Source: a virus (Duplodnaviria > Heunggongvirae > Uroviricota > Caudoviricetes). From it: a stretch of DNA of 46,204 nucleotides. The translations under genes and the position numbers were made by a program. Where the stretch lies: the IMG/VR virus record IMGVR_UViG_2541047747_000001. One strand, given 5' to 3'. Shown one piece after another: positions 4,725 to 46,204 of the stretch. How positions within the stretch are numbered: position 1 is the first letter of the stretch; the number at the start of each line of letters is the position of its first letter. The notes under the pieces were generated by a model. That model saw nothing but the letters and a program-made list of their open reading frames with translations, was not told the origin of the DNA and did not search any database.

Positions 4725-4743
4725 ATTTTATAACCCCAATACG

Positions 4744-4770
4744 GGCGCCAGAAATGGCGCCTTTTTTATT
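4744..4770 (+). terminator. rho-independent terminator after J
   Basis: GGCGCC-agaaat-GGCGCC stem-loop followed by TTTTTTATT. Confidence 0.65.
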
Positions 4771-4791
4771 GCAGAAAAGCGAGAGGTAATT

Positions 4792-5391
4792 ATGCGTAAA
4801 TTATGTGCTGTTATTCTGTCCGCAGTAGTCTGGCTGGTTGCCGCTGGTACGCCAGCGAGCGCAGCAGAGCATCAGTCCACACTAAGCGCCGGGTATCTTC
4901 AGACCCACACTGATATGCCAGGCAGCGATAATCTGAACGGGATTAACGTGAAATACCGTTATGAGTTTACGGACGCGCTGGGGCTGATTACGTCCTTCAG
5001 TTATGCCAATGCTGAGGATGAGCAAAAAACGCACTACAGCGATACCCGCTGGCATGAAGATTCCGTGCGTAACCGCTGGTTCAGCGTGATGGCGGGGCCA
5101 TCTGTACGCGTGAATGAATGGTTCAGTGCTTATGCGATGGCAGGTGTGGCTTACAGCCGTGTGTCGACGTTCTCCGGGGATTATCTCCGCGTAACTGACA
5201 ACAAGGGGAAAACGCACGATGTGCTGACCGGAAGTGATGACGATCGCCACAGCAACACGTCTCTGGCGTGGGGGGCTGGCGTGCAGTTTAACCCGACCGA
5301 ATCCGTGGCCATTGACCTTGCTTATGAAGGTTCCGGCAGTGGTGACTGGCGCACTGACGGTTTCATCGTAGGTGTCGGTTATAAATTCTGA
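4792..5391 (+). CDS. lom: Lom-like outer membrane protein (Ail/Lom family)
   Basis: 199 aa with signal peptide; C-terminal YEGSGSGDWRTDGFIVGVGYKF matches lambda Lom as recalled. Confidence 0.85.
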   Translation: MRKLCAVILSAVVWLVAAGTPASAAEHQSTLSAGYLQTHTDMPGSDNLNGINVKYRYEFTDALGLITSFSYANAEDEQKTHYSDTRWHEDSVRNRWFSVMAGPSVRVNEWFSAYAMAGVAYSRVSTFSGDYLRVTDNKGKTHDVLTGSDDDRHSNTSLAWGAGVQFNPTESVAIDLAYEGSGSGDWRTDGFIVGVGYKF

Positions 5392-5417
5392 TTAGCCAGG
5401 TAACACAGTGTTATGAC

Positions 5418-5445
5418 AGCCCGCCGGTTCAGGCGGGCTTTTTTG
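5418..5445 (+). terminator. rho-independent terminator after lom
   Basis: AGCCCGCC-ggttca-GGCGGGCT stem-loop followed by TTTTTT. Confidence 0.65.
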
Positions 5446-5455
5446 TGGAGTGGAT

Positions 5456-8400
5456 ATGGCAGCAGTAAAAATCTCAGGTGTGCTGAAAGATGGTGCGGGA
5501 AAACCAATACAGAACTGCACTATTCAACTGAAGGCAAAGCGTAACAGCACCACGGTACTGGTGAACACGGTGGCTTCTGAAAATCCGGATGAAGCCGGAC
5601 GTTACAGCATGGATGTTGAGTATGGCCAGTACAGCGTCACCCTGCTGGTTGAAGGTTTTCCGCCTTCACATGCCGGGACCATTACCGTCTATGAAGGTTC
5701 CAGACCAGGTACGCTGAATGATTTTCTCGGTGCCATGACGGAAGATGATGTCATGCCGGAGGCACTGCGCCGCTTTGAGCAGATGGTGGAAGAGGTGTCA
5801 CGTAACGCCTCCGCGGTTGCACAGAATACGGCAGCCGCGAAAAAATCAGCCAGCGATGCCAGTGCATCAGCCAGCGAGGCGGCAACTCATGCAACCGATG
5901 CTGCAGCCTCAGCACGTGCCGCCAGCACGTCAGCCGGACAGGCCGCGTCGTCGGCTCAGTCAGCGTCTTCCAGCGCAGGAACGGCATCGACAAAGGCCCG
6001 TGAAGCAGCAAAAAGTGCTGCTGCTGCAGAGTCATCAAAAAGCGCGGCAGCTACCAGCGCCAGTGCCGCGAAAACGTCAGAAACGAATGCCGCAGCATCA
6101 CAAAAATCGGCAGCCACTTCTGCATCCACAGCGACCACGAAAGCGTCAGAAGCTGCCACCTCGGCACGGGGTGCGGCGGCCTCAAAAGAGGCAGCGAAAT
6201 CTTCAGAAACGAATGCATCATCAAGTGCCAGTAGTGCAGCTTCCTCGGCAACGGCGGCAGGAAATTCCGCGAAGGCGGCAAAAACGTCCGAGACGAACGC
6301 CAGGTCTTCTGAAACAGCAGCGGGACAGAGCGCCTCAGCTGCGGCAGGTTCAAAAACAGCGGCTGCATTATCTGCCAGTGCCGCGTCAACAAGTGCCGGG
6401 CAGGCCTCAGCCAGTGCCACCGCCGCCGGAAAATCGGCAGAAAGCGCCGCATCATCCGCTTCAACAGCCACAACGAAGGCTGGCAAAGCCACTGAGCAAG
6501 CCACTGCAGCAGCGAGGTCTGCTTCTGCAGCAAAAACCTCTGAAACAAATGCAAAGACTTCAGCAGACAATGCTGCTTCCTCTAAGGCGGCAGCCGCATC
6601 GTCAGCCAGTTCAGCGGCGTCATCGGCATCATCTGCGTCTGCTTCAAAAGATGAGGCGACCAGACAAGCGTCAGCAGCGAAAGGTAGTGCCACGACAGCA
6701 ACAACGAAAGCATCAGAGGCGGCAGGCAGTGCGACGGCGGCATCTCAGAGCAAAGTTGCTGCTGAATCCGCGGCAACGCGTGCCGAAACAGCGGCAAAAC
6801 GGGCAGAGGATATTGCATCCGCCGTGGGGCTTGAGGATGCGAGCACGACGAAAAAGGGGATAGTACAGCTCAGCAGTGCAACAAACAGCACCAGTGAAAA
6901 GCTGGCGGCAACGCCAAAGGCAGTTAAAACTGTTAAAGATAGTTCAGTTCAAAAAACTGGCGACACAATGGGAGGGCAGTTAAAAATCAGCACGATAAAT
7001 GCTCTTCGAATATTCAACCAAGCCTTTGGCCTTATTTTTAGGCGTTCCGAAGATTATCTTCATCTTATTCCGACTAATGAAGGGGAGGGGGAAAATGGAG
7101 ACATCGGTTCATTAAGACCATTCTCTATAAACTTAAGATCAGGGTTGGTGTCCATCGGTAATGGACTAAAAGTTGGTGGTAGTGTTACTGGTAATTTGAC
7201 CGGAAACGCAGATACTGCGACCAAGATCAAGACAGCACGTAAGATTGGGGGCGTGGCATTTGATGGATCGGCAGATATCAACTTGCCTGGAGTCAACGCT
7301 ACCGGTAATCAAAACACTACAGGTAATGCTGCGACCGCCACGAAACTTCAGGCAGCCAGAACGATTAACGGTGTGTCATTTGATGGTAGTGCAAATATCA
7401 CATTGACCCCTTCAAATATTGGGGCATTGGCATTAACTGGAGGGACTCTTTCAGGTGGTTTAACTGCTGCTGGTGAGGTTATTTCAAGGTCAGCAAATGG
7501 TCTGCGTATTGCCTATGGCAACTATGGATTCTTTATCCGAAATGATGGATCAAACACATATTTTATGTTGACAGATTCGGGTAACAGTCTTGGTACGCAC
7601 AATAGCTTAAGGCCGTTTATAATTAGTAACCATACTGGCAATGTTACAATTGCAACTAAATTAAACGCGAGTGGTGGTATCACTGGATCTTTATCGGGTA
7701 ATGCAAGCACAGCAACCAAATTGCAAACTGCAAGGACAATTAACGGCGTAAAATTTGACGGCTCGGCAAATATTGAAGCGTTTCCGCCAGGTGTTCCGCT
7801 GCCGTGGCCATCAGATACACCACCTGCAGGTTATGCGATCATGCAGGGGCAGACGTTTGATAAGGCAGCATATCCGAAACTGGCTATTGCCTATCCTTCA
7901 GGTGTTATTCCAGATATGCGCGGCTGGACAATCAAGGGCAAACCCGCCAGTGGCCGGGCCGTATTGTCTCAGGAACAGGACGGCATAAAATCGCACACCC
8001 ACAGCGCCAGCGCATCCAGTACGGATTTGGGGACGAAAACCACATCGTCGTTTGATTACGGCACTAAATCCACGAATAACACCGGGGCGCATACGCACAG
8101 TCTGAGTGGCTCTACGGGGTCTGCCGGTGTTCATACTCATGGTAATGGTATTCGTTGGCCAGGAGGCGGCGGTTCTGCGTTAGCATTTTATGATGGCGGT
8201 GGGTTCACTTATGTCCAGAATTCACAGTATCAAGTAAGCCCGGAGACTTCTTCCTATAGATCGTATTATCAACGTATTCAGACACAGTCAGCAGGTGCTC
8301 ATACCCACTCGCTGTCTGGTACTGCAGCAAGTTCTGGCGCACATGCACATACTGTAGGTATTGGTGCGCATACGCACTCCGTTGCGATTGGTTCACATGG

Positions 8401-8485
8401 ACACACCATCACCGTTAACGCTGCGGGTAACGCGGAAAACACCGTCAAAAACATCGCATTTAACTATATTGTGAGGCTTGCATAA
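5456..8485 (+). CDS. stf: side tail fibre protein Stf
   Basis: N-terminus [27 protein letters not shown] and C-terminus [18 protein letters not shown] match lambda Stf as recalled; long Ala/Ser-rich KTSETNA repeats; GGAG RBS before the ATG at 5456. Confidence 0.9.
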
Positions 8486-9069
8486 TGGCATTCAGAATGA
8501 GTGAACAAGCACGGACCATAAAAATTTATAATCTGCTGGCCGGAACTAATGAATTTATTGGTGAAGGTGACGCATATATTCCGCCTCATACAGGTCTGCC
8601 AGCAAACAGTACCGATATTGCACCACCAGATATTCCTGCTGGCTTTGTGGCTGTTTTCAACAGTGATGAGGCATCGTGGCATCTCGTTGAAGACCATCGG
8701 GGTAAAACGGTTTATGACGTAGCGTCAGGGGACGAGTTATTTATTTCTGAACTCGGTCCGTTACCGGAAAATGTTACCTGGTTATCGCCGGAAGGGGAGT
8801 TTCAGAAGTGGAACGGCACAGCCTGGGTGAAGGATACGGAAGCAGAAAAACTGTTCCGGATCCGGGAGGCGGAAGAAACAAAAAACAGCCTGATGCAGGT
8901 AGCCAGCGAGCATATTGCGCCGCTTCAGGATGCTGCAGATCTGGAAATTGCAACAGAGGAAGAAATCTCGTTGCTGGAAGCATGGAAAAAGTATCGGGTA
9001 TTGCTGAACCGTGTTGATACGTCAACTGCACCTGATATTGAGTGGCCTACGAACCCTGTCAGGGAGTAA
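8485..9069 (+). CDS. tfa: tail fibre assembly protein Tfa
   Basis: 194 aa, [42 protein letters not shown] nearly identical to lambda Tfa as recalled; start overlaps stf stop (TAATG). Confidence 0.9.
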
Positions 9070-9083
9070 TCATTGGGATTATG

Positions 9084-9116
9084 CCGCAGCACGTCTTAAG
9101 CAAGAACGTGCTGCGG
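9084..9116. terminator. perfect 11-bp inverted repeat between convergent tfa and dinI-like gene (possible bidirectional or factor-dependent terminator)
   Basis: CCGCAGCACGT-cttaagcaaga-ACGTGCTGCGG; no flanking U-tract on either strand. Confidence 0.4.
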
Positions 9117-9184
9117 TTGGATGGTGAACTTTCGATAGTGCGAGTATTGAATGATTTCCAGCCGTTACCGATTTTACGTGTTAA

Positions 9185-9433
9185 TTAGTGAACAAACCAC
9201 TCGTCAGCAGACTCCCAGGTATCTTTCAGAGTTTCCTGAACAAAAGTTTTAGCTGAATCTTTATCGGCGGTGCGCGTAACAGAAAGGCCATCGTTGCTGG
9301 TAGCTTTTACGATCACCTCTACATCGTCATAACGTTTACTGATGCGTCGGGTTAATTCTTCCTTTAACGCATCCACAGCACCGGTTGGCATTTTAGTCAT
9401 TTTTTCTTTGGCTATGCAGATTTCAATACGCAT
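9185..9433 (-). CDS. dinI: DinI-like DNA damage-inducible protein
   Basis: 82 aa; MRIEI...AVDAL..EL.RRI...[10 protein letters not shown] pattern typical of the DinI family; two LexA boxes directly upstream. Confidence 0.8.
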
Positions 9434-9448
9434 AAAAGTCCCTCTACA

Positions 9449-9492
9449 CTGTGTTTGTATACAGTATCATTTTTAACTGTATGGATAAACAG
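9449..9492 (-). promoter_or_regulatory. two LexA (SOS) boxes overlapping the dinI-like promoter
   Basis: CTGTgtttgtatACAG (9449-9464) and CTGTatggataaACAG (9477-9492) fit CTGT-N8-ACAG; minus-strand -35 TTGACA (rc of 9495-9500) with 17-bp spacer to TAAAAA. Confidence 0.75.
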
Positions 9493-9509
9493 TGTCAAGG
9501 GTGAGGGAA

Positions 9510-9790
9510 AGTGATTTTTTGGGGCATGCATGGGGCAAAAATATTTGTTGTGGGGCATTTTGGGGCATGATTGGGACACTTTGTTACATATGAACTTTGC
9601 CGATTTTTATATGACATGGAAATACAACGCTTTGATTCTTCTAAATAAAAAATATGCTCTTGGGCGTTCTTTAGTGATTTTTAAAAATTCCGTATCACGC
9701 AGTTAACATGACGGGTATTAAGGATTAACTTACTGATTTTAATAAGCCTCTGATGTCACTTTGGTGACTATGGGGCATCATTGGGACATA
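9510..9790. other. putative attP region with integrase arm-type repeats
   Basis: Four TGGGGCA repeats at 9520-9567 and an 18-bp direct repeat TGGGGCAT(G/C)ATTGGGACA at 9561-9578 and 9771-9788, next to the int 3' end; core crossover site not identified. Confidence 0.45.
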
Positions 9791-34804: not shown

Positions 34805-36312
34805 TGGCAATTCTTGATGATGTGATTGGCGTTTTTTCACCAGGATGGAAAGCGGCAAGGCTGCGTTCCCGTGCGGTGATCCAGGCTTATGAGGCCGTAA
34901 AAACGACGCGGACACACAAAGCCCGGCGGGAGAACCGAACTGCCGACCAGTTAAGCCAGTACGGGGCCGTGTCGTTACGTGAGCAGGCCCGTTACCTTGA
35001 TAACAACCACGATCTGGTTATTGGTGTATTTGACAAGCTGGAAGAACGGGTGGTGGGGAAAAACGGGATTATTGTCGAGCCACATCCGGTATTACGCAAT
35101 GGGGCCATTGCCCGTGATCTGGCAGCGGAGATTCGCACCCGATGGAGTGAATGGTCTGTCAGCCCGGAAGTCACCGGGCAGTTTACCCGTCCGATGCTGG
35201 AACGTCTGATGCTGCGTACCTGGCTGCGCGATGGTGAGGTGTTTGCCCAGATGGTTTCCGGGCGCATAAACAGCCTGACGCCTTCTGCCGGTGTTCATTT
35301 CTGGCTGGAGGCGCTCGAGCCAGACTTTATTCCCATGACCAGTGATGAGAGCAACAGGCTGAATCAGGGCGTGTTTGTTGATGACTGGGGGCGTCCCGAA
35401 AAATATCTGGTGTATAAAAGTCGTCCTGTATCCGGACGGCAGATGGAAACCAAAGAAGTGGATGCAGAGCGAATGCTGCATCTTAAATTTGTTCGCCGTC
35501 TGCACCAGATGCGCGGGACGTCTTTATTGTCCGGTGTGCTGATCCGCCTCAGTGCCCTGAAAGAGTATGAAGATTCTGAGCTGACTGCAGCAAGGATCGC
35601 CGCTGCTCTGGGGATGTACATCCGCAAAGGCGACGGGCAGAGCTATGAACCGGATGGTAATGGCAGCAAGGATAAGGAACGCGAGCTTACCATTCAGCCA
35701 GGCATTATTTACGACGATCTGAAACCCGGCGAAGAAATCGGAATGGTGAAGTCGGATCGCCCCAATCCTAACCTTGAAACTTTTCGTAATGGTCAGTTGC
35801 GTGCCGTGGCGGCGGGCAGTCGTCTGAGTTTTTCCAGTACAGCGCGCAACTATAACGGCACTTACAGCGCCCAGCGTCAGGAGCTGGTTGAATCTACTGA
35901 TGGCTACCTGATCCTGCAGGACTGGTTTATTGGTGCCGTCACCCGCCCGATGTATCGTGCCTGGCTGAAACAGGCTGTGGCATCCGGTGTTATCAGGCTA
36001 CCCCGCGATCTTGACCGTTCTTCACTGTATACCGCGGTGTATTCCGGACCAGTGATGCCGTGGATTGACCCTGTTAAGGAGGCTGAGGCCTGGAAAATCC
36101 AGATTCGTGGTGGAGCGGCGACAGAATCAGATTGGGTACGTGCTGGTGGTCGTAATCCGGATGATGTCAAACGTCGGCGCAAGGCCGAAATTGATGAAAA
36201 CCGCAAGCTGGATCTGGTATTTGATACCGATCCGGCCAGTGATAAAGGAGGCAGCAGTGCCGCAACGAAACGACAGGAGCCGCAGCACACCGACGACCAG
36301 TCCGAAGAATAA
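34804..36312 (+). CDS. portal protein (lambda gpB family)
   Basis: About 500 aa following W; start ATG overlaps the W stop (TGATG); ORF track extends upstream to 34732. Confidence 0.8.
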   Translation: MAILDDVIGVFSPGWKAARLRSRAVIQAYEAVKTTRTHKARRENRTADQLSQYGAVSLREQARYLDNNHDLVIGVFDKLEERVVGKNGIIVEPHPVLRNGAIARDLAAEIRTRWSEWSVSPEVTGQFTRPMLERLMLRTWLRDGEVFAQMVSGRINSLTPSAGVHFWLEALEPDFIPMTSDESNRLNQGVFVDDWGRPEKYLVYKSRPVSGRQMETKEVDAERMLHLKFVRRLHQMRGTSLLSGVLIRLSALKEYEDSELTAARIAAALGMYIRKGDGQSYEPDGNGSKDKERELTIQPGIIYDDLKPGEEIGMVKSDRPNPNLETFRNGQLRAVAAGSRLSFSSTARNYNGTYSAQRQELVESTDGYLILQDWFIGAVTRPMYRAWLKQAVASGVIRLPRDLDRSSLYTAVYSGPVMPWIDPVKEAEAWKIQIRGGAATESDWVRAGGRNPDDVKRRRKAEIDENRKLDLVFDTDPASDKGGSSAATKRQEPQHTDDQSEE

Positions 36313-36325
36313 TTCCTGGTTCAGG

Positions 36326-38284
36326 ATGCAGGCTGGTCACCAGAGTGACGCGGATATTTATATTTATGACGAGATTGGTTTCTGGGGTGTTACAGCGAAG
36401 CAGTTTATCAGTGATCTGAATGCACTGGGCGATATCACCCACATTAATCTCCATATCAATTCACCGGGTGGCGATGTCTTTGAAGGCATAGCCATTTTTA
36501 ATGCGCTGAAAACACATGGTGCGTCCATTACCGTTTATGTCGACGGTGTGGCGGCGTCAATGGCGTCGGTCATTGCGATGGTGGGAAACCCGGTCATTAT
36601 GCCGGAAAACACCTTCATGATGATTCATAAACCATTTGGCTTTACGGGCGGTGATGCGGAGGACATGCGCACCTATGCCGACCTGCTCGATAAGGTTGAG
36701 GCGGTTCTGTTACCCGCTTATGCACAGAAAACCGGGAAAACCACCGATGAAATTGCTGCCATGCTGGCGGATGAGACCTGGATGTCCGGTGCCGAATGTC
36801 TGGCACATGGATTTGCTGATCAGGTGACGCCAGCCGTTAAGGCAATGGCATGTATTCAGTCAAAACGTACAGAGGAATTTAAAAAGATGCCGGAATCCAT
36901 TCGAAACATGATTACTCCGCCACGCAACAGTGCTCCACGCGTACAGGATGATGAACCTGCAGCCTCCCGGACGCCAGTGCAGGCAGCAGCACCCGTGGTG
37001 GATGAAAACAGTATCCGTGCGCAGGTACTGGCAGAGCAAAAAGCGCGTGTAAACGGTATTAATGATCTGTTTGCCATGTTTGGCGGGCGTTATCAGACGC
37101 TGCAGGCTCAGTGTCTTGCCGATCCTGAATGTTCGCTGGAGCAGGCCCGCGAAAAGCTGTTGAACGAGATGGGGCGCGAGTCCACGCCATCCAATAAAAA
37201 TACACCGGCTCATATTTATGCCGGTAACGGTAATTTTGTGGGGGACGGGATCCGCCAGGCGCTGATGGCGCGTGCCGGATTTGAAAAAACCGAACGTGAT
37301 AATGTCTACAACGGGATGACCCTGCGTGAATATGCCCGTATGTCACTGACTGAACGGGGTATTGGGGTTTCCAGTTATAACCCGATGCAGATGGTCGGTG
37401 CGGCGTTCACACACAGTACGTCTGACTTCGGTAATATTCTGCTGGATGTTGCGAACAAAGCCATTCTGCAGGGCTGGGAAGATGCTCCTGAAACCTATGA
37501 ACAGTGGACGCGGAAAGGTCAGTTGTCTGATTTTAAAATTGCCCATCGTGTGGGTATGGGGGGCTTCAGTGCTCTGCGTCAGGTGCGTGAAGGGGCGGAA
37601 TATAAATACGTCACCACCGGAGATAAACAGGCCACTATTGCACTGGCGACCTATGGCGAGCTGTTCAGTATCACCCGTCAGGCCATTATCAATGATGATC
37701 TGAATATGCTGACCGATGTCCCGATGAAACTGGGCCGTGCGGCGAAATCCACTATTGCCGATCTGGTTTATGCCATTCTGACGTCTAACCCGAAAATCTC
37801 CACAGATAATGTAAGTCTGTTCGATAAAGCGAAACATGCAAACGTACTGGAGAGCGCTGCAATGGACGTGGCATCGCTGGATAAAGCCCGCCAGTTGATG
37901 CGCGTTCAGAAAGAGGGGGAGCGTCATCTGAATATTCGTCCTGCGTTCGTACTGGTACCGACGGCGATGGAGTCTGTTGCTAACCAGGTCATTCGCTCCT
38001 CAAGTGTCAAGGGGGCTGACATTAACGCCGGTATTATTAACCCGGTGAAAGATTTTGCGACCGTTATTGCAGAGCCTCGTCTTGATGATAACAGCCAGAC
38101 CACCTTCTACCTGGCTGCGTCAAAAGGCTCCGATACGATTGAAGTGGCTTATCTCAACGGTGTGGATACGCCATATATTGATCAGATGGAGGGCTTCAGT
38201 GTGGATGGCGTGACAACGAAAGTGCGTATTGACGCCGGTGTCGCGCCAGTTGATCACCGCGGTCTGGTGAAATGTACGGCGTAA
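36326..38284 (+). CDS. head maturation protease (ClpP-like) fused to major capsid protein domain
   Basis: N-terminal ClpP-like region (HINSPGGDVFEGIAIFNALK...ASMASVIAMVG) then a long C-terminal capsid-like region; start at the first Met after the portal stop, upstream in-frame Mets exist. Confidence 0.7.
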   Translation: MQAGHQSDADIYIYDEIGFWGVTAKQFISDLNALGDITHINLHINSPGGDVFEGIAIFNALKTHGASITVYVDGVAASMASVIAMVGNPVIMPENTFMMIHKPFGFTGGDAEDMRTYADLLDKVEAVLLPAYAQKTGKTTDEIAAMLADETWMSGAECLAHGFADQVTPAVKAMACIQSKRTEEFKKMPESIRNMITPPRNSAPRVQDDEPAASRTPVQAAAPVVDENSIRAQVLAEQKARVNGINDLFAMFGGRYQTLQAQCLADPECSLEQAREKLLNEMGRESTPSNKNTPAHIYAGNGNFVGDGIRQALMARAGFEKTERDNVYNGMTLREYARMSLTERGIGVSSYNPMQMVGAAFTHSTSDFGNILLDVANKAILQGWEDAPETYEQWTRKGQLSDFKIAHRVGMGGFSALRQVREGAEYKYVTTGDKQATIALATYGELFSITRQAIINDDLNMLTDVPMKLGRAAKSTIADLVYAILTSNPKISTDNVSLFDKAKHANVLESAAMDVASLDKARQLMRVQKEGERHLNIRPAFVLVPTAMESVANQVIRSSSVKGADINAGIINPVKDFATVIAEPRLDDNSQTTFYLAASKGSDTIEVAYLNGVDTPYIDQMEGFSVDGVTTKVRIDAGVAPVDHRGLVKCTA

Positions 38285-38370
38285 ACGTCGCAGATAACAA
38301 CTCTGATGGCCCGTAAGGGCTTTTTTTGTACCTGAAATCAGCCCCTGAACGGGGCTGTGCGGAGACAGTT

Positions 38371-38694
38371 ATGGCAAAGAATTTTGTAGAAGAAGGAAAA
38401 ACGGTGGCGATTGTTGCCAGTGCAGCCATCAGCAGCGGAGATCTGGTGCAGGTGGGTGATGTTTTTGCGGTGGCGCTGACCGATATTCCACAGGGTGAAA
38501 CAGGCGACGGCATGACCGAAGGTGTGTTTATGCTGCCTAAGCTGAAAACGGATGATATGAAAACGGGTAAGAAGGTTTATCTGAAGTCCGGAAAAGTTCA
38601 GCTGACTAACAGCGGCTCTGATCCGCTGGTCGGGGTTGTCTGGGCAGATGCCGGAACCAGTGCAGAAGAAGTGCCGGTAAAACTCAATGTCTGA
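38371..38694 (+). CDS. putative head decoration or capsid-associated protein
   Basis: 108 aa from MAKNFVEEGK after a GGAGA RBS; positional call after the capsid gene. Confidence 0.45.
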   Translation: MAKNFVEEGKTVAIVASAAISSGDLVQVGDVFAVALTDIPQGETGDGMTEGVFMLPKLKTDDMKTGKKVYLKSGKVQLTNSGSDPLVGVVWADAGTSAEEVPVKLNV

Positions 38695-39972: not shown

Positions 39973-40716
39973 ATGACCACACCAAATCCACTGGCAAAGA
40001 CGAAAGGTGCGGGGACGACGTTCTGGATGTATACCGGCAACGGCGACGCATTTGCGAACCCTTTGTCGGACACTGACTGGCTGCGTCTTGCGATGGTGAA
40101 GGATCTGCAACCTGGCGAAATGACCGCTGATGCAGAAGATGATACTTATCTCGATGATGAAGATGCAGACTGGAAAACGACAACCCAGGGGCAGAAATCA
40201 GTCGGTGATACTTCGGCGACGCTGGCCTGGCGTCCGGGTGACAGCGGGCAGAAAAAACTGGTTCAGTTGTTCGACTCCGGTGAAGTCTGCGCGTTTCGTA
40301 TCAAATATCCCAACGGTACTGTTGATGTTTTCCGTGGCTGGCTGAGTTCACTGGGTAAAACCATTGCCTCAAAAGACGTGATGACCCGCACTGTGAAAAT
40401 CAGCGGTGTGGGGCGTCCGTATCTGGCAGAGGAAGGCACTGAAACAGTGAGCGTTACCGGGCTGACGGTGGCACCGGCATCTGCCAGTGTAAAAGTGGGA
40501 GCAACCACCACGCTGACCTTTACAGTAAAACCTGACGGAGCCAGTGACAAAGCGATCAGTGTGCATTCGTCAGATCCACAGACTGCCACGGTGACCCTGA
40601 ACGGGCTTGTAGCCACGGTGAAAGGCGTGAAGCAGGGCAGTGTCAGCATTGTGGGCATGACCGCTGACGGGAATTTTGTGGCTGTGGCTGCGGTGACTGT
40701 CAGCGCCGCAGGTTAA
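39973..40716 (+). CDS. V: major tail protein V (with C-terminal Ig-like domain)
   Basis: AAGGAGG RBS; KGAGTTFWMYTGNGDAFANPLSDTDW and YLDDEDADW blocks match lambda gpV. Confidence 0.9.
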   Translation: MTTPNPLAKTKGAGTTFWMYTGNGDAFANPLSDTDWLRLAMVKDLQPGEMTADAEDDTYLDDEDADWKTTTQGQKSVGDTSATLAWRPGDSGQKKLVQLFDSGEVCAFRIKYPNGTVDVFRGWLSSLGKTIASKDVMTRTVKISGVGRPYLAEEGTETVSVTGLTVAPASASVKVGATTTLTFTVKPDGASDKAISVHSSDPQTATVTLNGLVATVKGVKQGSVSIVGMTADGNFVAVAAVTVSAAG

Positions 40717-40736
40717 CAGGACGATACTTATCATTT

Positions 40737-40760
40737 GCCCCGGTTATCCGGGGCTTTTTT
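40737..40760 (+). terminator. rho-independent terminator after V
   Basis: GCCCCGG-ttat-CCGGGGC followed by TTTTTT. Confidence 0.65.
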
Positions 40761-40773
40761 GCAGGTGGAGAAC

Positions 40774-41163
40774 ATGATGTTTCTGAAACAGGGCACGTTT
40801 AATTATGAAAAACAGTCCGTGGTGCTCAGTGAGCTGTCCGGGCTGCAGAGAATTGAATATCTGGCGTTTGTTCAGCAGCGAACGGCAAAGTTTGATGCCG
40901 GTGAGGGAGAACTGCCGGAGGCTGAACGACAGATTGCTTTTCTGCGGATGGGGATGGATATCAATGCCTGGCTGGTTTCCCGCTCACTGTGGAATGCGGA
41001 TCAGTCTAAGGATGTAGAGACGCTTTGCGCATCCGTTATTACAACATGGTCGTATGATGCCCTGGGTGCGGGGGCGGAGATGGTTCTGTCGCTGAGCGGT
41101 ATGGGGGCCATTGATAATGCCGGGGATGATGAGCATGAGGCGCTGACGCCGGAAAAGTCCTGA
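40774..41163 (+). CDS. G: tail assembly chaperone G
   Basis: MMFLKQGTFNYEKQSVVLSELSGLQRIEYLA resembles lambda gpG; followed by the T frame in -1. Confidence 0.8.
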   Translation: MMFLKQGTFNYEKQSVVLSELSGLQRIEYLAFVQQRTAKFDAGEGELPEAERQIAFLRMGMDINAWLVSRSLWNADQSKDVETLCASVITTWSYDALGAGAEMVLSLSGMGAIDNAGDDEHEALTPEKS

Positions 41164-41171
41164 CGCGGGAA

Positions 41172-41501
41172 ATGCAGTTTGTCATGCGGCTTGCCCGGGA
41201 GTTCCGGCGGGCAGACTGGCGGCGGATGCTGTCGGAAATGTCGGCCACTGAGCTTGGTGAGTGGGGCGATTATTTCCGGATGCAGAGCTTCAGTGATGTG
41301 TGGATGGATGCGCAGTTTGCCTCGCTGAAGGCATTGATCGTGAGAATGGTGTCCGGCAGCAGTGATGCTGCGGTGGCTGATTTCAGCCTTTTACCGGAAG
41401 AGAACGGGATACCGGAGCGAACGGACGAAGAACTGATGCATCTTGGGGAAGGTATTTCCGGAGGTGTGCGTTATGGACCAGATAGCCAACCTGGTCATTG
41501 A
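41172..41501 (+). CDS. T: tail assembly protein T segment (expressed as a G-T fusion by -1 programmed frameshift)
   Basis: ORF in the -1 frame relative to G, open from the end of G; candidate slippery site GGAAAAG at 41151-41157. Confidence 0.65.
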   Translation: MQFVMRLAREFRRADWRRMLSEMSATELGEWGDYFRMQSFSDVWMDAQFASLKALIVRMVSGSSDAAVADFSLLPEENGIPERTDEELMHLGEGISGGVRYGPDSQPGH

Positions 41502-44500
41502 TTTGGGGATTGATGCGGCAGAGTTTAAAAATGAAATTCCCCGTATCAAAAACCTTCTGAATGGTGCAGCCAGCGATGCAGAACGGTCTTCTGCCCGTAT
41601 GCAGCGTTTTATGGAGCGTCAGACTCAGGCCGCCCGGCAGACAACGCAGGCGGCTTCTTCGGCTGCAACAGCCGCATCCGTTCATGCGCAGACGGTGGAG
41701 AAGAACGCACAGGCTCATGAACGCATGGCCCGTGAGGTGGAGAAAACCCGCCAGCGCATGGAGGCACTGAGCCAGAAAATGCGCGAGGAACAGGCGCAGG
41801 CCATGGCTCTGGCGGAGGCTCAGGATAAAGCGGCTGCTGCGTTTTATCGTCAGATTGACAGTGTGAAACAGGCCAGTGCGGGGCTGCAGGAATTACAGCG
41901 TATTCAGCAGCAGATCCGACAGGCCAGAAACAGTGGCGGGATTGGTCAGCAGGATTATCTGGCGCTGATTTCTGAGGTTACTGCGAAAACCCGTGTTCTT
42001 ACACAGGCTGAGGAAGAGGCTACCCGACAGAAAGTGGCGTTTATCCGTCAGCTTAAAGAGCAGGCAACCCGCCAGAATCTTTCTTCTTCTGAGTTGCTTC
42101 GTGCTAAGGCTGCCCAGCTGGGGGTAAGCAGTGCTGCAGAAGTGTATATCCGCAAAATGGAGCAGGCAGGAAAAGCCACGCATTCGCTGGGGCTGAAAAG
42201 TGCAGCGGCCCGTCAGGAGATAGGCGTTCTGATAGGTGAACTGGCCCGCGGAAATTTAGGTGCGCTGAGGGGATCCGGAATAACGCTGGCTAACCGTGCC
42301 GGGTGGATAGACACATTGATGTCACCGAAAGGCATGATGCTTGGCGGGGTTATTGGCGGTATTGCCGCGGCTGTCTATGGCCTGGGTAAAGCCTGGTATG
42401 ACGGTCAGAAGGAGGGGGAAGAATTTAACCGCCAGCTGTCGCTGACGGGGCATTATGCCGGAGTCACTGCCGGGCAGCTGTGGACGCTCAGTCGTGCTAT
42501 TTCCGGGAATGGTATCACGCAACATGCTGCAGCCGGTGCGCTGGCTCAGGTGGTGGGGAGTGGTGCATTTCGTGGAAACGATATCGGTATGGTGGCGAGA
42601 GCTGCCGCACAGATGGAGCGATCGGTTGGCCAGTCGGTCAGCGATACCATAAATCAGTTTAAGCGGCTGAAGGATGATCCTGTAAATGCCGCGAAGTCTC
42701 TGGACAATGAGCTGCATTTTCTTACTGCCACTCAGCTTGAGCAGATACGCGTCCTTGGAGAGCAGGGGCGGTCCAGTGATGCGGCACGGATAGCCATGTC
42801 TGCACTGGCAGAGGAAACCGGTCGGCGTACTGCGGATATTGATAATAACCTCAATGCGCTGGGCAGTACGCTGCAAACTTTGTCTGACTGGTGGAAGCAG
42901 TTCTGGGATGCGGCCATGAATATTGGTCGTGAAGATTCGCTGGATGCGCAGATTGCCACTTTGCAGGAGAAAGTGTCGCGGGCGAAAAGACTCCCCTGGA
43001 CGGCATCATCTTCTCAGGTTGAATACGATCAGCAGCGTCTTAACGATCTTCAGGAGAAAAAACGCCAGAAGGATTTGCAGGATGCAAAAGAGCAGGCAGA
43101 GCGGAATTATCAGGAGCAACAGAAACGCCGTAATGCTGAAAATGCTGCACTGAACCGGATGAATGAAACGGAAGCTGCACGACATCAGCGTGAAATTGCG
43201 CGTATTAATGCCATGCAGTACGCCGATCAGGCTGTCAGGGATGCTGCGATACAACGTGAAAATGAACGTTACGAGAAAGCCCTGGCATCCGGTAAGAAAA
43301 AAACACGCGAAACCCGTAATGATGAGGCCACCCGGTTATTGCTGCAGTACAGCCAGCAACAGGCACAGGTGGAAGGACAGATTGCTGCTGCAAGACAGTC
43401 AGCAGGCATTGCCACTGACAGGATGACAGAAGCGCATAAACAGCTTCTGGCTCTGCAGCAGCGCATCAGCGATCTGGACGGGAAAAAACTGACGGCAGAT
43501 GAAAAGAGTGTGCTGGCCCGTAAAGATGAACTGATTCAGGCACTGACGCTGCTGGATGTAAAACAGCAGGAGCTTCAGAAACAGACGGCACTCAACGATC
43601 TGAAGAAAAAAACAATTCAGCTGACCAGTCAACTGGCTGAAGAAGAGCGCGCTCAGCGTCAGCAACATGACCTGGATATCGCCACGGTGGGTATGGGTGA
43701 TCAGCAGCGGCAGCGATATCAGGTACAACTGAGTCTTCGCCAGAAATACCAGCAACAGCTGGAGCAGTTGAGGCGGGATAGTGAGCAGAAAGGGACATAT
43801 AACACGGATGACTACAGAAAGGCCGAGCAGGCGCTGACGGAGAGCCTGAACCGACAACTGAATGAGAATCACCGTTACTGGCAACAGCTTGAAATTGCTC
43901 AGGGTAACTGGAAAAACGGTGCTATGCGGGCGTTTCAGAATTTCACGGCAGATGCGGATAATGCGGCAGGCACTGCTGAGCAGATGCTTACAGCGGCATT
44001 TAACAGTGCAGGTAATGCACTGGCAACGTTCTGTACTACCGGAAAACTGAACTTCAAATCTTTTACCGCCTCGCTCCTTTCTGATCTGGCAAAAATCATG
44101 GCTCAGATGTCCATGATGCAGGCAGTTAAGGGGATTGGTTCGGCGTTTGGCTGGGGGAGTGCAGCAACTGCCAGTGTGACGCCCAATGCTGATGGTGGTG
44201 TTTATCAGTCTGCTGATTTGAGTCGCTACAGTGGCACGGTGGTTAATCGTCCGACGTTTTTTGCTTTTGCAAAAGGTGCAGGTGTGATGGGGGAAGCTGG
44301 GCCTGAAGCCATTCTGCCTCTGCGTCGTGGTGCTGACGGTAAGCTGGGGGTTGTGGCGGATATTGGTGGTTCAGGTATGGCGATGTTTGCCCCGCAGTAC
44401 AACATCGAGATCAATAACGATGGCACGAACGGGCAGATAGGTCCGGCTGCCCTGAAGGTGGTTTATGATCTCGGGAAAAAAGCAGCAGCGGACTTTATGC

Positions 44501-44547
44501 AACAGCAGTCCCGTGATGGTGGTCTGTTCTCCGGAGGTGGACGATGA
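41473..44547 (+). CDS. H: tail tape measure protein H
   Basis: About 1020 aa, coiled-coil rich with C-terminal Gly-rich region; GGAGG RBS before the ATG at 41473. Confidence 0.85.
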   Translation: MDQIANLVIDLGIDAAEFKNEIPRIKNLLNGAASDAERSSARMQRFMERQTQAARQTTQAASSAATAASVHAQTVEKNAQAHERMAREVEKTRQRMEALSQKMREEQAQAMALAEAQDKAAAAFYRQIDSVKQASAGLQELQRIQQQIRQARNSGGIGQQDYLALISEVTAKTRVLTQAEEEATRQKVAFIRQLKEQATRQNLSSSELLRAKAAQLGVSSAAEVYIRKMEQAGKATHSLGLKSAAARQEIGVLIGELARGNLGALRGSGITLANRAGWIDTLMSPKGMMLGGVIGGIAAAVYGLGKAWYDGQKEGEEFNRQLSLTGHYAGVTAGQLWTLSRAISGNGITQHAAAGALAQVVGSGAFRGNDIGMVARAAAQMERSVGQSVSDTINQFKRLKDDPVNAAKSLDNELHFLTATQLEQIRVLGEQGRSSDAARIAMSALAEETGRRTADIDNNLNALGSTLQTLSDWWKQFWDAAMNIGREDSLDAQIATLQEKVSRAKRLPWTASSSQVEYDQQRLNDLQEKKRQKDLQDAKEQAERNYQEQQKRRNAENAALNRMNETEAARHQREIARINAMQYADQAVRDAAIQRENERYEKALASGKKKTRETRNDEATRLLLQYSQQQAQVEGQIAAARQSAGIATDRMTEAHKQLLALQQRISDLDGKKLTADEKSVLARKDELIQALTLLDVKQQELQKQTALNDLKKKTIQLTSQLAEEERAQRQQHDLDIATVGMGDQQRQRYQVQLSLRQKYQQQLEQLRRDSEQKGTYNTDDYRKAEQALTESLNRQLNENHRYWQQLEIAQGNWKNGAMRAFQNFTADADNAAGTAEQMLTAAFNSAGNALATFCTTGKLNFKSFTASLLSDLAKIMAQMSMMQAVKGIGSAFGWGSAATASVTPNADGGVYQSADLSRYSGTVVNRPTFFAFAKGAGVMGEAGPEAILPLRRGADGKLGVVADIGGSGMAMFAPQYNIEINNDGTNGQIGPAALKVVYDLGKKAAADFMQQQSRDGGLFSGGGR

Positions 44548-44873
44548 AAACCTTCCGCTGGAAAGTGAAACCCGGGATGGATGTGACATCGGCTCCTTCC
44601 GTCAGGGAGGTGCGCTTTGGTGATGGCTATTCCCAGCGTGCGCCTGCCGGGCTGAACGCTGACCTGAAAACGTACAGCGTGACGCTGTCTGTCTCCCGTG
44701 AGGAGGCCACGGCGCTGGAGTCGTTTCTGGCTGAGCACGGGGGCTGGAAGGCCTTTCTGTGGACGCCGCCTTATGGCTACCGGCAGATAAAGGTGACCTG
44801 CGCAAAATGGTCGTCGCGGGTCAGTATGTTGCGTGTTGAGTTCAGCGCAGAGTTTGAACAGGTGGTGAACTGA
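44544..44873 (+). CDS. M: minor tail protein M
   Basis: 109 aa MKTFRWKVKPGMDVTSAPSVREVRFGDGYSQRAPAGLNA, near-identical to lambda gpM as recalled. Confidence 0.9.
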   Translation: MKTFRWKVKPGMDVTSAPSVREVRFGDGYSQRAPAGLNADLKTYSVTLSVSREEATALESFLAEHGGWKAFLWTPPYGYRQIKVTCAKWSSRVSMLRVEFSAEFEQVVN

Positions 44874-45571
44874 TGCAGGATATCCGACAGGAAACACTGA
44901 ATGAATGCACCCGTGCGGAGCAGTCTGCCAGCGTGGTACTCTGGGAAATCGACCTGACGGTACAGGGCGGTGAGCGGTATTTTTTCTGTAATGAGCTGAA
45001 TGAAAAAGGGGAGCCGGTCACCTGGCAGGGGCGTAAGTATGAGGCATACCCGATTGACGGCAGCGGCTTTGAGATGAACGGCCGGGGCAGCAGTGCCCGC
45101 CCGTCGCTGACGGTGTCCAATCTGTTTGGCCTTGTCACCGGGATGGCGGAGGACCTGCAGAGTCTGGTGGGGGCCACGGTGGTCCGCCGCCGGGTGTATG
45201 CCCGTTTTCTGGATGCGGTGAATTTCGTTGCGGGCAATCCGGAGGCGGACCCGGAGCAGGAGCTGAGTGACCGCTGGGTGGTGGAGCAGATGTCGCAGCT
45301 GACAGCCATGACGGCCTCGTTTGTGCTGGCCACACCGACCGAGACGGACGGGGCGCTGTTTCCCGGTCGCATCATGCTGGCGAACACCTGTATGTGGACC
45401 TACCGCTCTGATGAGTGTGGTTACACGGGCGGGGCAGTGGCGGATGAGTTCGATAAACCCACCACGGATATCCGTAAGGACAGATGCAGCAAGTGCATGC
45501 GCGGGTGTGAACTGCGCAGGAATGTCGGCAATTTTGGCGGTTTCCTTTCCATTAATAAACTTTCGCAGTAA
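44873..45571 (+). CDS. L: tail tip protein L
   Basis: 232 aa MQDIRQETLNECTRAEQSASVVLWEIDL...NVGNFGGFLSINKLSQ, matches lambda gpL. Confidence 0.9.
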   Translation: MQDIRQETLNECTRAEQSASVVLWEIDLTVQGGERYFFCNELNEKGEPVTWQGRKYEAYPIDGSGFEMNGRGSSARPSLTVSNLFGLVTGMAEDLQSLVGATVVRRRVYARFLDAVNFVAGNPEADPEQELSDRWVVEQMSQLTAMTASFVLATPTETDGALFPGRIMLANTCMWTYRSDECGYTGGAVADEFDKPTTDIRKDRCSKCMRGCELRRNVGNFGGFLSINKLSQ

Positions 45572-45581
45572 ATCCCGGTTT

Positions 45582-46204
45582 ATGACACAGACTGAATCAG
45601 CGATTCTGGCGCATGCCCGGCGGTGTGCGCCTGCGGAGTCGTGCGGCTTCGTGATAAGCACGCCGGAGGGGGAGCGGTATATCCCTTGTGTGAATATTTC
45701 CGCAGAGCCGGAGGCGTATTTTCGTATCGCACCGGAAGACTGGCTGCGGGCAGAGATGCAGGGGGAGATTGTGGCACTGGTCCACAGTCATCCCGGTGGG
45801 CTGCCCTGGCTGAGCGAGGCTGACCGGCGGCTGCAGATAAAAAGCGCACTGCCCTGGTGGCTGGTCTGCCGGGGTGACATTCACAAATTCCGCTGTGTGC
45901 CACATCTGACGGGACGGCGCTTTGAGCACGGGGTGACGGACTGTTACACGCTGTTCCGGGATGCTTATCATCTGGCGGGGACTGAGATGCCGGATTTTCA
46001 TCGCGAGGATGACTGGTGGCGTCACGGTCAGAATCTCTATCTGGATAATCTGGAGGCCACAGGGCTGTATCAGGTGCCGTTGTCAGCGGCGCAGCCGGGC
46101 GATGTGCTGCTGTGCTGTTTTGGTTCATCGGTGCCGAATCATGCCGCCATTTACTGTGGTGACGGCGAGCTGCTGCACCATATTCCTGAACAACTGAGTA
46201 AACG
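45582..46204 (+). CDS. K: tail assembly protein K (JAB/MPN plus NlpC/P60-type), 5' portion running to the window end
   Basis: ATG at 45582; ESAILAHARRCAPAESCGF...HSHPGG...CYTLFRDAYH matches lambda gpK; frame continues through the terminal repeat. Confidence 0.85.
   Translation, partial: MTQTESAILAHARRCAPAESCGFVISTPEGERYIPCVNISAEPEAYFRIAPEDWLRAEMQGEIVALVHSHPGGLPWLSEADRRLQIKSALPWWLVCRGDIHKFRCVPHLTGRRFEHGVTDCYTLFRDAYHLAGTEMPDFHREDDWWRHGQNLYLDNLEATGLYQVPLSAAQPGDVLLCCFGSSVPNHAAIYCGDGELLHHIPEQLSK
46119..46204. repeat. terminal direct repeat identical to window positions 1-86 (circular junction or assembly overlap)
   Basis: Direct comparison of first and last lines: tttggttcatcggtgccgaatcatgccgcc... 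is present at both ends, in frame with gene K. Confidence 0.9.

What the first reader, a model, noticed from the sequence alone, without database searches (positions are those of the whole stretch)
41145..41175. Candidate G-T programmed -1 frameshift site
The T reading frame is open in the -1 frame from the end of G, and the heptamer GGAAAAG (41151-41157) lies eight nucleotides before the G stop, analogous to the lambda GGGAAAG slippery site. The exact slip position is an inference.
Basis: partly seen in the sequence, partly recalled or inferred. Interest (0 to 1): 0.35.

Follow-up and report, generated by a model that had tools for sequence, protein, structure and literature searches.

The report
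Phage tail chaperone G-T frameshift site
This is the ordinary, well-known ribosomal slip site that lambda-like phages use to make a small amount of a fused G-T tail-assembly chaperone; the same seven bases sit at the same place in phage N15 and many relatives, so the call is very probably right but not new.

Summary
GGAAAAG lies at 41151-41157 in register G_GAA_AAG within gene G (gpG family, 40777-41163). The -1 frame is open from 41139 to 41501 and encodes a gpT-family domain. G and T sit between the major tail gene V and the tape-measure gene H. One detail is wrong: the heptamer ends 3 nt before the TGA, not 8.

Predicted G-T fusions from 12 lineages (about 35-55% identity) align without gaps across the junction. 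Every lineage has a slip-prone heptamer in the same column: GGAAAAG in the cdtI/mEp460 group, Gifsy-2, N15, HK225, phi80, mEp213 and a Providencia phage; GGGAAAG in lambda; AAAAAAG in Stx phages. The N15 GenBank record already labels GGAAAAG as the slippery sequence. GAA-AAG never changes synonymously, while the Thr codon two codons upstream uses all four synonyms. The ATG at 41172, which every record uses as the T start, is not conserved.

Two caveats apply. G_GAA_AAG is non-canonical (tRNA-Glu re-pairs on GGA with a second-position mismatch) and served as a "less slippery" control in vitro. No conserved downstream RNA structure was found.

Verdict: already known, low interest.

The parts
39973..40716 (+). 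Major tail protein gene (lambda V homologue), directly upstream of G
   Evidence: Pfam Phage_TTP_12 1.2e-66 plus Big_2; annotated as major tail protein in Tritos, mEp460 and PhiR40_1
40737..40760 (+). Terminator-like GC hairpin plus T-run between V and G
   Evidence: Scan hit with 7 GC pairs then TTTTTT; annotated as a rho-independent terminator in mEp460 and Ayreon, and at the same place in N15
40777..41163 (+). Gene G, tail assembly chaperone: 128 aa, 14.1 kDa (an alternative ATG at 40774 adds one Met); zero-frame product
   Evidence: Pfam Phage_TAC_2 (lambda gpG) 1.8e-39; ORF list and translation
41136..41138 (+). Last stop codon (TGA) in the T (-1) frame; upstream limit of the window in which a -1 shift yields G-T
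   Evidence: Direct reading and translation
41137..41140 (+). SD-like GAGG, 10 nt upstream of the heptamer; candidate weak stimulator, unproven
   Evidence: An xAG|G element is kept 10 nt (13 nt in L108) upstream in the cdtI/Gifsy clade across different amino acids. About 17-18% of random in-frame positions have such an element 6-17 nt upstream.
41151..41157 (+). Shift site G_GAA_AAG (P-site GAA/tRNA-Glu, A-site AAG/tRNA-Lys)
   Evidence: Invariant in 91 close relatives and 80 further IMG/VR loci. Same heptamer annotated as slippery in N15. Same alignment column as lambda GGGAAAG.
41161..41163 (+). G stop codon TGA
41157..41501 (+). T segment read in the -1 frame after the shift (114 codons plus stop). 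The predicted G-T fusion is 241 aa and 27.0 kDa, with junction ...ALTPEK|VLTREMQF...
   Evidence: Pfam Phage_tail_T 5.1e-15; fusion translation; ungapped junction alignment
41172..41174 (+). ATG used as the T start in every public annotation; probably an internal Met of G-T
   Evidence: Annotated start in Tritos, mEp460 and PGAP. Leu at this position in Gifsy-2, N15, phi80 and lambda, and in the L108-type loci. The first T-frame start is at codon 24 in four lineages.
41473..44547 (+). Tape measure gene (lambda H homologue), overlapping the end of T by 29 nt
   Evidence: Pfam TMP_2 3e-49 and Tape_meas_lam_C 1e-23

Best explanation
A small fraction of ribosomes translating G slip back one base on G_GAA_AAG (41151-41157). 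tRNA-Lys moves from AAG to AAA, a cognate re-pairing. tRNA-Glu moves from GAA to GGA, with G:C, a second-position G.U, and A:U. Those ribosomes miss the TGA at 41161 and read GTC CTG ACG... in the T frame to 41501. The product is a 241-aa G-T fusion (...ALTPEK-VLTREMQF...). Most ribosomes stop and make the 128-aa G. By homology with lambda, the G part binds the tape-measure protein and the T part recruits the major tail protein. The fixed low G-T:G ratio is what tail assembly needs.

Shown here: the gene family assignments, the frames, the heptamer, and its conservation at the homologous position. Inferred: that slippage actually occurs, how often, and the order of tRNA movements. Every slip order gives the same protein.
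For: (1) Family and synteny are V-G-T-H-M-L, with gpG and gpT Pfam hits.
(2) Only 22 nt allow a productive -1 shift, and GGAAAAG is the only slip-prone motif there.
(3) In 12 lineages at about 35-55% identity the fusion alignment is ungapped across the junction. The Lys codon of a slip-prone heptamer sits in one column. The heptamers are GGAAAAG x8, GGGAAAG x3 counting PhiR12_4, AAAAAAG x2 and CCCAAAA in a Vibrio phage.
(4) Wherever this was measured, the heptamer starts 18 nt before the conserved T-frame E[LM]xF..LAREF motif (all 80 loci; the same K+5 spacing). Its distance to the G stop varies from 0 to 15 nt. It is therefore positioned relative to T, as a joining point should be.
(5) GAA-AAG never changes synonymously, although AAG is only 33% of Lys codons and GAA 50% of Glu codons here. 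The Thr codon two positions upstream appears as ACG, ACA, ACT and ACC.
(6) The N15 record annotates this exact heptamer as the slippery sequence. The Gifsy-2 record, with the identical CCGGAAAAGTCCTGA junction, calls the T ORF 'part of G+G' frameshift hybrid protein'.
(7) The ATG at 41172 is not conserved. In Gifsy-2, phi80, mEp213 and PSTCR8lys the first T-frame start codon lies 24 codons past the junction, inside the conserved domain.
(8) A_AAG is the most shift-prone tetramer in E. coli (PMC4066793). The natural sites G_CGA_AAG (IS1222) and A_CGA_AAG (B. subtilis cdd) work with poor P-site re-pairing (PMC5009743).
Against: No experiment exists for this phage or, as far as I could find, for any GGAAAAG G-T site. 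The heptamer is not X_XXY_YYZ. In a reconstituted E. coli system AUG_GAA_AAG gave 'mainly the 0-frame product' and was used as the less slippery control (PMC6924986). A_AAG alone gave about 0.15% without a stimulator in reporter assays (PMC4066793). No significant or conserved downstream structure was found (z = -0.75 and +0.93; consensus fold -6.3 kcal/mol with no covariation). An in-frame ATG 8 nt after the G stop leaves some independent T synthesis possible in this particular phage.
Confidence: 0.9

Rival explanations
1. T is made as a free-standing 109-aa protein from the ATG at 41172, by reinitiation or coupling after the G stop 8 nt upstream. This is how all database records annotate it. 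No frameshift is needed.
For: An in-frame ATG lies at 41172, close to the G stop. Tritos, mEp460, cdtI and PGAP annotate it this way in prophages found in 1846 E. coli genomes.
Against: The ATG is Leu in Gifsy-2, N15, phi80 and lambda, and in the L108-type IMG/VR loci. Four lineages have no start codon before codon 24 of the conserved T domain. The only purine-rich stretch upstream (GGGAA) abuts the ATG, closer than a typical SD spacing (direct reading). T-frame homology (K-V-[LF]-x-x-E) runs upstream of the ATG to the heptamer without gaps. This model does not explain the synonymous invariance of GAA-AAG. In lambda the T domain works only when fused to G (review PMC5009743).
Confidence: 0.05
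2. The frameshift happens, but as a single-tRNA slip of tRNA-Lys on A_AAG. This could be an A-site slip, or a P-site slip with an empty A site. tRNA-Glu re-pairing on GGA would contribute little, so the functional motif is the tetramer and the upstream GG is incidental. The protein product is the same.
For: A_AAG is the best tetramer in E. coli (PMC4066793). The natural sites N_CGA_AAG lack P-site re-pairing (PMC5009743). The P-site codon differs between lineages (GAA, GGA, AAA) while A_AAG is constant in enterobacterial relatives.
Against: In every lineage the three bases before A_AAG still allow Watson-Crick or G.U re-pairing of the P-site tRNA (GGA, GGG, AAA, CCC). The base before GAA is G in all GGAAAAG lineages despite different codons (CCG, GCG, CTG). 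That points to selection on the full heptamer.
Confidence: 0.25
3. The G-T join is made at the RNA level. RNA polymerase slips on the A-run and adds or drops an A, so a fraction of mRNAs is shifted in frame.
For: There is a run of four A's at 41153-41156.
Against: By general knowledge, productive transcriptional slippage needs longer homopolymer runs, about 7-9 or more. Four A's is far too short. Lambda and PhiR5_1 have only three A's at the homologous site.
Confidence: 0.01
4. The heptamer is a chance occurrence, or is conserved only because G needs ...PEK at its C-terminus. The overlap has no recoding function.
For: GGAAAAG is not rare in the window (12 copies against 7.2 expected). Four other in-frame copies exist in long ORFs.
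Against: P is about 0.0025 for an in-frame copy in the 22-nt window. At the other copies the -1 frame stops after 4-21 codons. Codon choice is invariant in all lineages. The G C-terminus is otherwise hypervariable in length and sequence right up to the heptamer.
Confidence: 0.02

Closest known systems
Bacteriophage lambda G / G-T programmed -1 frameshift (Levin, Hendrix & Casjens 1993; Xu, Hendrix & Duda 2004, 2013, 2014, as cited in PMC5009743)
   Same: Homologous genes (about 35% identity over the fusion). Same V-G-T-H order. The shift site falls in the same alignment column, with the same A-site codon AAG, the same Val as first T-frame residue, and the same 5-residue spacing to the E[LM]xF motif. 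No downstream structure is apparent.
   Different: The heptamer is G_GAA_AAG, not the canonical G_GGA_AAG. The P-site tRNA is Glu and re-pairs with a second-position mismatch. The G frame ends 1 codon after the site instead of 5. T is shorter (114 against 144 codons after the junction). Lambda's site is proven by experiment and this one is not.
Phage N15 gene 14 / gene 15 (NC_001901, misc_feature 'slippery sequence for -1 translational frameshift')
   Same: Identical heptamer GGAAAAG in the identical register at the homologous position.
   Different: About 36% protein identity. The preceding codon is GCG, not CCG. The G frame continues 5 codons after the site. No SD-like element lies within 17 nt upstream.
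Salmonella prophage Gifsy-2 STM1039 / STM1041.1n ('part of G+G' frameshift hybrid protein; lambda gpT homolog')
   Same: Closest relative outside the cdtI/mEp460 group (55% identity). The junction ACGCCGGAAAAGTCCTGA is identical. An SD-like GAGG lies at the same spacing.
   Different: There is no in-frame ATG near the G stop, which makes the fusion obligatory there.
Tetramer-type A_AAG -1 sites: IS1222 G_CGA_AAG and Bacillus subtilis cdd A_CGA_AAG (PMC5009743; Sharma et al. 2014, PMC4066793)
   Same: The shift depends mainly on tRNA-Lys sliding AAG to AAA, and P-site re-pairing is imperfect.
   Different: Here the P-site tRNA can still form two Watson-Crick pairs plus a G.U. No pseudoknot or hairpin stimulator was detected, whereas the high values for A_AAG in reporter assays needed the IS3 pseudoknot.
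E. coli dnaX A_AAA_AAG with upstream SD-like element and downstream hairpin
   Same: Same A-site codon. A possible SD-like GAGG lies 10 nt upstream, which I recall is also the dnaX spacing (not checked here).
   Different: No downstream hairpin. The SD-like element is only 4 nt and is not significant on its own. dnaX shifts at about 50% to make a shorter product. Here a low-level shift is expected and it makes a longer one.

Membership tests
Lambda-type gpG/gpGT tail assembly chaperone pair expressed by programmed -1 frameshift | Two overlapping ORFs located between the major tail protein gene and the tape-measure gene | tested here: met
   V 39973-40716, G 40777-41163, T frame 41139-41501, H 41473-44547, then M and L
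Lambda-type gpG/gpGT tail assembly chaperone pair expressed by programmed -1 frameshift | The upstream ORF belongs to the gpG family | tested here: met
   PF06894 Phage_TAC_2, E 1.8e-39, 134.9 bits against a cut-off of 27
Lambda-type gpG/gpGT tail assembly chaperone pair expressed by programmed -1 frameshift | The downstream ORF is in the -1 frame relative to G and belongs to the gpT family | tested here: met
   PF06223 Phage_tail_T, E 5.1e-15, 56.1 bits against a cut-off of 25.9; frame arithmetic and translation
Lambda-type gpG/gpGT tail assembly chaperone pair expressed by programmed -1 frameshift | A slip-prone site in the zero frame inside the G/T overlap, at the position homologous to lambda's proven site | tested here: met
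   G_GAA_AAG is the only candidate in the 22-nt overlap. It sits in the same ungapped alignment column as lambda G_GGA_AAG. The same heptamer is annotated as slippery in N15.
Lambda-type gpG/gpGT tail assembly chaperone pair expressed by programmed -1 frameshift | The T segment has no conserved initiation site of its own | tested here: met
   The ATG at 41172 is not conserved. The first T-frame start is at codon 24 in Gifsy-2, phi80, mEp213 and PSTCR8lys. L108-type loci have Leu at that position.
Lambda-type gpG/gpGT tail assembly chaperone pair expressed by programmed -1 frameshift | The G-T fusion protein is actually produced at a low fixed ratio to G (about 1:30 in lambda) | not testable with these tools
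   Needs a western blot, mass spectrometry or a reporter assay. No published data were found for this phage group.
Lambda-type gpG/gpGT tail assembly chaperone pair expressed by programmed -1 frameshift | The G part binds the tape-measure protein and the T part binds the major tail protein | not testable with these tools
   Inferred from homology only (review PMC5009743)
Canonical X_XXY_YYZ tandem-slippage heptamers | Positions 1-3 are identical and positions 4-6 are identical, so both tRNAs keep two Watson-Crick pairs after the shift | tested here: not met
   The heptamer is G-G-A-A-A-A-G. Position 3 is A, not G. tRNA-Glu would face GGA with a second-position mismatch (PMC6924986). It matches PRFect's empirical 'twofour' class (PMC10885494).
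Z_ZZN tetramer -1 sites (A_AAG type) | [quoted passage not shown] | tested here: met
   gaA_AAG in the zero frame; A_AA.G is the top tetramer in E. coli (PMC4066793)
Stimulated bacterial -1 sites (dnaX / IS3 / IS911 type) | A downstream hairpin or pseudoknot 5-8 nt after the heptamer | tested here: not met
   Single-sequence folds do not differ from shuffles (z = -0.75 and +0.93). The consensus fold of 11 lineages is -6.3 kcal/mol, starts 34 nt downstream, and has a covariation term of +0.16.
Stimulated bacterial -1 sites (dnaX / IS3 / IS911 type) | An SD-like element 6-17 nt upstream of the heptamer | tested here: inconclusive
   GAGG lies 10 nt upstream. xAG|G is kept in the cdtI/Gifsy clade across different residues. 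The background rate is 17-18%. It is absent from the N15, phi80 and lambda lineages.

The most novel reading that the evidence does not exclude
G_GAA_AAG, which biochemists use as a poorly slippery control because tRNA-Glu must re-pair on GGA with a second-position mismatch, is the commonest natural G-T shift site among the enterobacterial lambdoid lineages sampled here. If so, two readings remain open. Either these phages run tail assembly at a clearly lower G-T:G ratio than lambda, or efficiency in vivo is restored by context, for instance the SD-like xAG|G element 10 nt upstream that is kept in the cdtI/mEp460/Gifsy-2 clade across different amino acids. Either outcome would be a natural test of how much P-site re-pairing matters for -1 frameshifting in cells.
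Probability: 0.25. Interest if true: 0.35.

Novelty: already known. Interest (0 to 1): 0.12.

Why it matters
The main value is for annotation. This G/T module is carried by prophages in 1846 of 5426 complete E. coli genomes. Every record I inspected (Tritos, mEp460, Ayreon, PhiR40_1, PGAP) lists T as a stand-alone gene starting at a non-conserved ATG, or further downstream, instead of as the -1 extension of G. The real 27-kDa G-T chaperone is therefore missing from protein databases. A minor mechanistic point follows. Many natural G-T sites use a heptamer with an imperfect P-site re-pairing that is only weakly slippery in vitro. This fits the low G-T:G ratio that tail assembly needs and gives a convenient natural substrate for measuring the contribution of P-site pairing in vivo.

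Tried and rejected
- **Downstream stimulatory RNA structure.** Folds of 41151-41270 and 41158-41225 do not differ from shuffled controls. An RNAalifold consensus of 11 lineages shows only a weak helix 34 nt downstream with no covariation. Rejected.
- **Upstream SD-like stimulator.** It is present and clade-conserved, but the background frequency is 17-18% and it is absent from the N15, phi80 and lambda lineages. Kept only as a lead.
- **Other slip sites in the overlap.** None found.
- **Transcriptional slippage.** Rejected, because a run of four A's is too short.
- **Independent initiation of T.** Rejected as the main route, because the start is not conserved.
- **Literature search for GGAAAAG with frameshift and tail terms.** No phage paper turned up. 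Xu et al. 2004 is not in the held library, so I could not check whether N15-type sites were tested by experiment there.
- **The genome-contig scan with G alone.** It returned only close relatives at 91-98% identity. Diversity came from tblastn against phage records and a T-domain profile scan of IMG/VR.
- **Window-wide screen for other gene-end heptamers with long -1 extensions.** It gave only shadow ORFs inside real genes, apart from G/T.

Full report
**What the window is.** The region 40700-41600 is 99.9% identical to Escherichia phage Tritos and 99.1-99.8% identical to mEp460, cdtI and several ECOR-derived phages. The first 25 kb carries tail-tip and fibre genes, an integrase and early genes of related lambdoid prophages. 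The window is therefore most likely a permuted, roughly 46-kb lambdoid phage or prophage genome. Around the finding the gene order is that of the lambda tail module:

| Gene | Coordinates | Pfam evidence |
|---|---|---|
| V | 39973-40716 | Phage_TTP_12 plus Big_2 |
| G | 40777-41163 | Phage_TAC_2 / lambda gpG, E 1.8e-39 |
| T (-1 frame ORF) | open 41139-41501 | Phage_tail_T, E 5.1e-15 |
| H | 41473-44547 | TMP_2, Tape_meas_lam_C |
| M | 44544-44873 | Phage_min_tail |
| L | 44873-45571 | Phage_tail_L |

**Checking the observation.**
- Read directly, the G frame ends ...GCG CTG ACG CCG GAA AAG TCC TGA, with the stop at 41161-41163.
- GGAAAAG occupies 41151-41157 in register G_GAA_AAG.
- The frame one base back has a TGA at 41136-41138 and is then open to 41499-41501.
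- Only 22 nt (41139-41160) allow a -1 shift to join G to T, and GGAAAAG is the only slip-prone motif there.
One codon (TCC) separates the heptamer from the TGA.
- The heptamer is not rare as a word: 12 copies on both strands against 7.2 expected.
- Its placement is unlikely. In-frame G_GAA_AAG occurs at 4 of 9604 codon positions in the long ORFs of the window that were surveyed, a set that excludes G. That gives P of about 0.0025 for the six available positions. The figure is about 0.027 for any in-frame N_NNA_AAG.
- At those four in-frame copies the -1 frame terminates after 4-21 codons. Here it continues for 114 codons.

**Comparative evidence.** A tblastn search with the predicted fusion found 186 phage records: 17 near-identical and 169 below 60% identity. 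I pulled representatives and built the predicted fusions.

- In all 12 lineages the overlap holds an in-frame slip-prone heptamer:

| Heptamer | Lineages |
|---|---|
| GGAAAAG | this window, Gifsy-2, Providencia phage PSTCR8lys, N15, HK225, mEp237, phi80, mEp213 |
| GGGAAAG | lambda, PhiR5_1, PhiR12_4 |
| AAAAAAG | Stx1_9793, CP-1639 |
| CCCAAAA | Vibrio phage HY01 |

- The MAFFT alignment of the fusions is ungapped across the junction. The heptamer's Lys codon falls in a single column. The pattern is ...[TS][PA][EGK]K | [VA][LF]xxE[LM]xF..LAREF.
- Wherever measured, the heptamer starts 18 nt before the conserved T-frame Glu (all 80 loci; the same K+5 spacing). Its distance to the G stop varies from 0 nt (PSTCR8lys) through 3 nt (this phage, Gifsy-2) to 15 nt (lambda, N15). 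A site fixed relative to T and not to the end of G is what a joining point should look like.
- Among 91 close relatives from GTDB genomes and IMG/VR, and 80 further IMG/VR loci recovered with a T-domain profile, the heptamer is invariant although flanking bases vary.
- GAA-AAG never appears as GAG or AAA in any of the roughly 20 distinct haplotypes. Yet AAG is only 33% of Lys codons and GAA 50% of Glu codons in this phage's structural genes. The Thr codon two positions upstream appears as ACG, ACA, ACT and ACC.
- The G C-terminal tail just upstream is hypervariable in length and sequence. Protein-level constraint on G therefore cannot explain the conservation.

**Prior knowledge in the records.**
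- The N15 RefSeq record carries a misc_feature "slippery sequence for -1 translational frameshift". Its sequence is GGAAAAG, in the same register.
- The Gifsy-2 record has the identical junction CCGGAAAAGTCCTGA. It describes the T ORF as "part of G+G' frameshift hybrid protein; Lambda gpT homolog" and cites cdtI as a relative.
- HK225's note reads "downstream half of translational frameshift product".
- None of the records for this phage group (Tritos, mEp460, Ayreon, PhiR40_1), nor PGAP in E. coli chromosomes, annotates a join. Most start T at the ATG at 41172; Ayreon starts further downstream and PhiR40_1 slightly upstream.
- The module is present in 1846 of 5426 complete E. coli genomes.

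**The rival: independent T.** The ATG at 41172 lies 8 nt after the G stop, so reinitiation is conceivable. The evidence against it as the main route:
- That Met is Leu in Gifsy-2, N15, phi80 and lambda, and in the L108-type loci.
- Four lineages have no T-frame start codon until codon 24, inside the conserved domain.
- The homology in the T frame runs through and upstream of the ATG to the heptamer.
- The purine-rich stretch before the ATG directly abuts it.
- In lambda the T domain acts only as part of G-T, linking the tape measure (bound by the G part) to the major tail protein (bound by the T part), at a ratio of about 1:30 (review PMC5009743).

I rate independent initiation as the main route at about 5%.

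**Mechanism.**
- The A-site codon AAG, preceded by A, lets the single E. coli tRNA-Lys re-pair cognately on AAA. A_AA.G is the most shift-prone tetramer in E. coli (PMC4066793).
- The P-site tRNA-Glu would re-pair on GGA with G:C, G.U and A:U. So this is not a canonical X_XXY_YYZ site. It matches PRFect's empirical "twofour" class. The PRFect authors also invoke G:U pairing for a GAA-reading tRNA rebinding on GGA (PMC10885494).
- Natural precedents with even poorer P-site re-pairing exist: G_CGA_AAG in IS1222 and A_CGA_AAG in B. subtilis cdd (PMC5009743).
- Against high efficiency, Peng et al. 2019 used AUG_GAA_AAG as the less slippery comparison to G_GGA_AAG and saw mainly zero-frame product (PMC6924986). 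A_AAG alone gave about 0.15% in reporters without a stimulator.
- I found no downstream stimulator.
- An SD-like xAG|G lies 10 nt upstream (GAGG, 41137-41140). It is retained in the cdtI/mEp460/Gifsy-2 clade across different residues (E-A, E-V, E-D, K-D, Q-V, Q-E, Q-D). It is absent from the N15, phi80 and lambda lineages. Such elements occur upstream of 17-18% of random in-frame positions. It stays a lead, not a finding.
- A low efficiency is what the system needs, so a weak site is not a problem for the model. All plausible slip orders (tandem, A-site only, P-site with empty A site) give the same product...ALTPEK-VLTREMQF..., 241 aa, 27.0 kDa, against 128 aa and 14.1 kDa for G.

**Verdict.** It has not been demonstrated by experiment for this phage. 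It is a known feature of a known family, so interest is low. The useful by-products are an annotation correction (T should be the -1 extension of G) and the note that a heptamer regarded as poorly slippery is the commonest natural G-T site among the enterobacterial lambdoid lineages sampled here.

Noticed in passing
window 40737-40760: A strong GC hairpin followed by TTTTTT lies between the major tail gene V and G. It is annotated as a rho-independent terminator in mEp460 and Ayreon, and a terminator-like stem-loop sits at the same place in N15 (an unlabelled stem_loop in HK225). It could lower G/T/H expression relative to V.
   Followed up: partly
window 41137-41140; homologous positions in L106, L108, L110, L112, L128, L131: An SD-like xAG|G element lies 10 nt (13 nt in L108) upstream of the heptamer. 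It is kept in the cdtI/mEp460/Gifsy-2 clade although the encoded residues differ. It is absent from the N15, phi80 and lambda lineages. The background rate for such elements is 17-18%, so it is not significant alone.
   Followed up: partly
window 41172-41501; L105 738-1067: Every public annotation inspected, including PGAP, lists T as a stand-alone CDS; most start it at a non-conserved ATG (41172). The G-T module occurs in prophages of 1846 of 5426 complete E. coli genomes, so the G-T fusion protein is systematically missing from databases.
   Followed up: yes
window 41473-41501: The tape-measure gene H starts (ATG 41473) 29 nt inside the end of T, within the conserved GGVRYGP motif of T. So G, T and H form a chain of overlapping frames.
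   Followed up: no
window 36161-38284: A single 707-aa ORF combines a ClpP-type protease domain (residues 63-223) with a phage major capsid domain (409-704). This is a fused prohead protease and capsid gene. A Phage_cement_2 decoration protein gene follows at 38368-38694.
   Followed up: no
window 41375-41392: The mEp460 record annotates a 'rho-independent terminator' here, inside T (GGCTGatttCAGCC followed by TTTT). It has only a 5-bp stem, and my terminator scan did not report it.
   Followed up: no
L104 (Vibrio phage HY01) about 930-943: A distant G/T homologue in a Vibrio phage has C_CCA_AAA at the homologous junction, with both ORFs annotated as hypothetical. It looks like another unannotated G-T frameshift.
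   Followed up: partly
window 1478, 22910, 28699, 32241: Four other in-frame G_GAA_AAG heptamers lie in long ORFs. At each, the -1 frame stops within 4-21 codons. They serve as internal negative controls and would at most give rare truncated products.
   Followed up: yes
window 1-9700 and 44544-46204: The window starts with host-specificity and tail-fibre genes and ends in M, L and the following tail-tip genes, with an integrase near 9.7 kb. It looks like a permuted whole lambdoid phage or prophage genome, not a chromosomal segment.
   Followed up: partly
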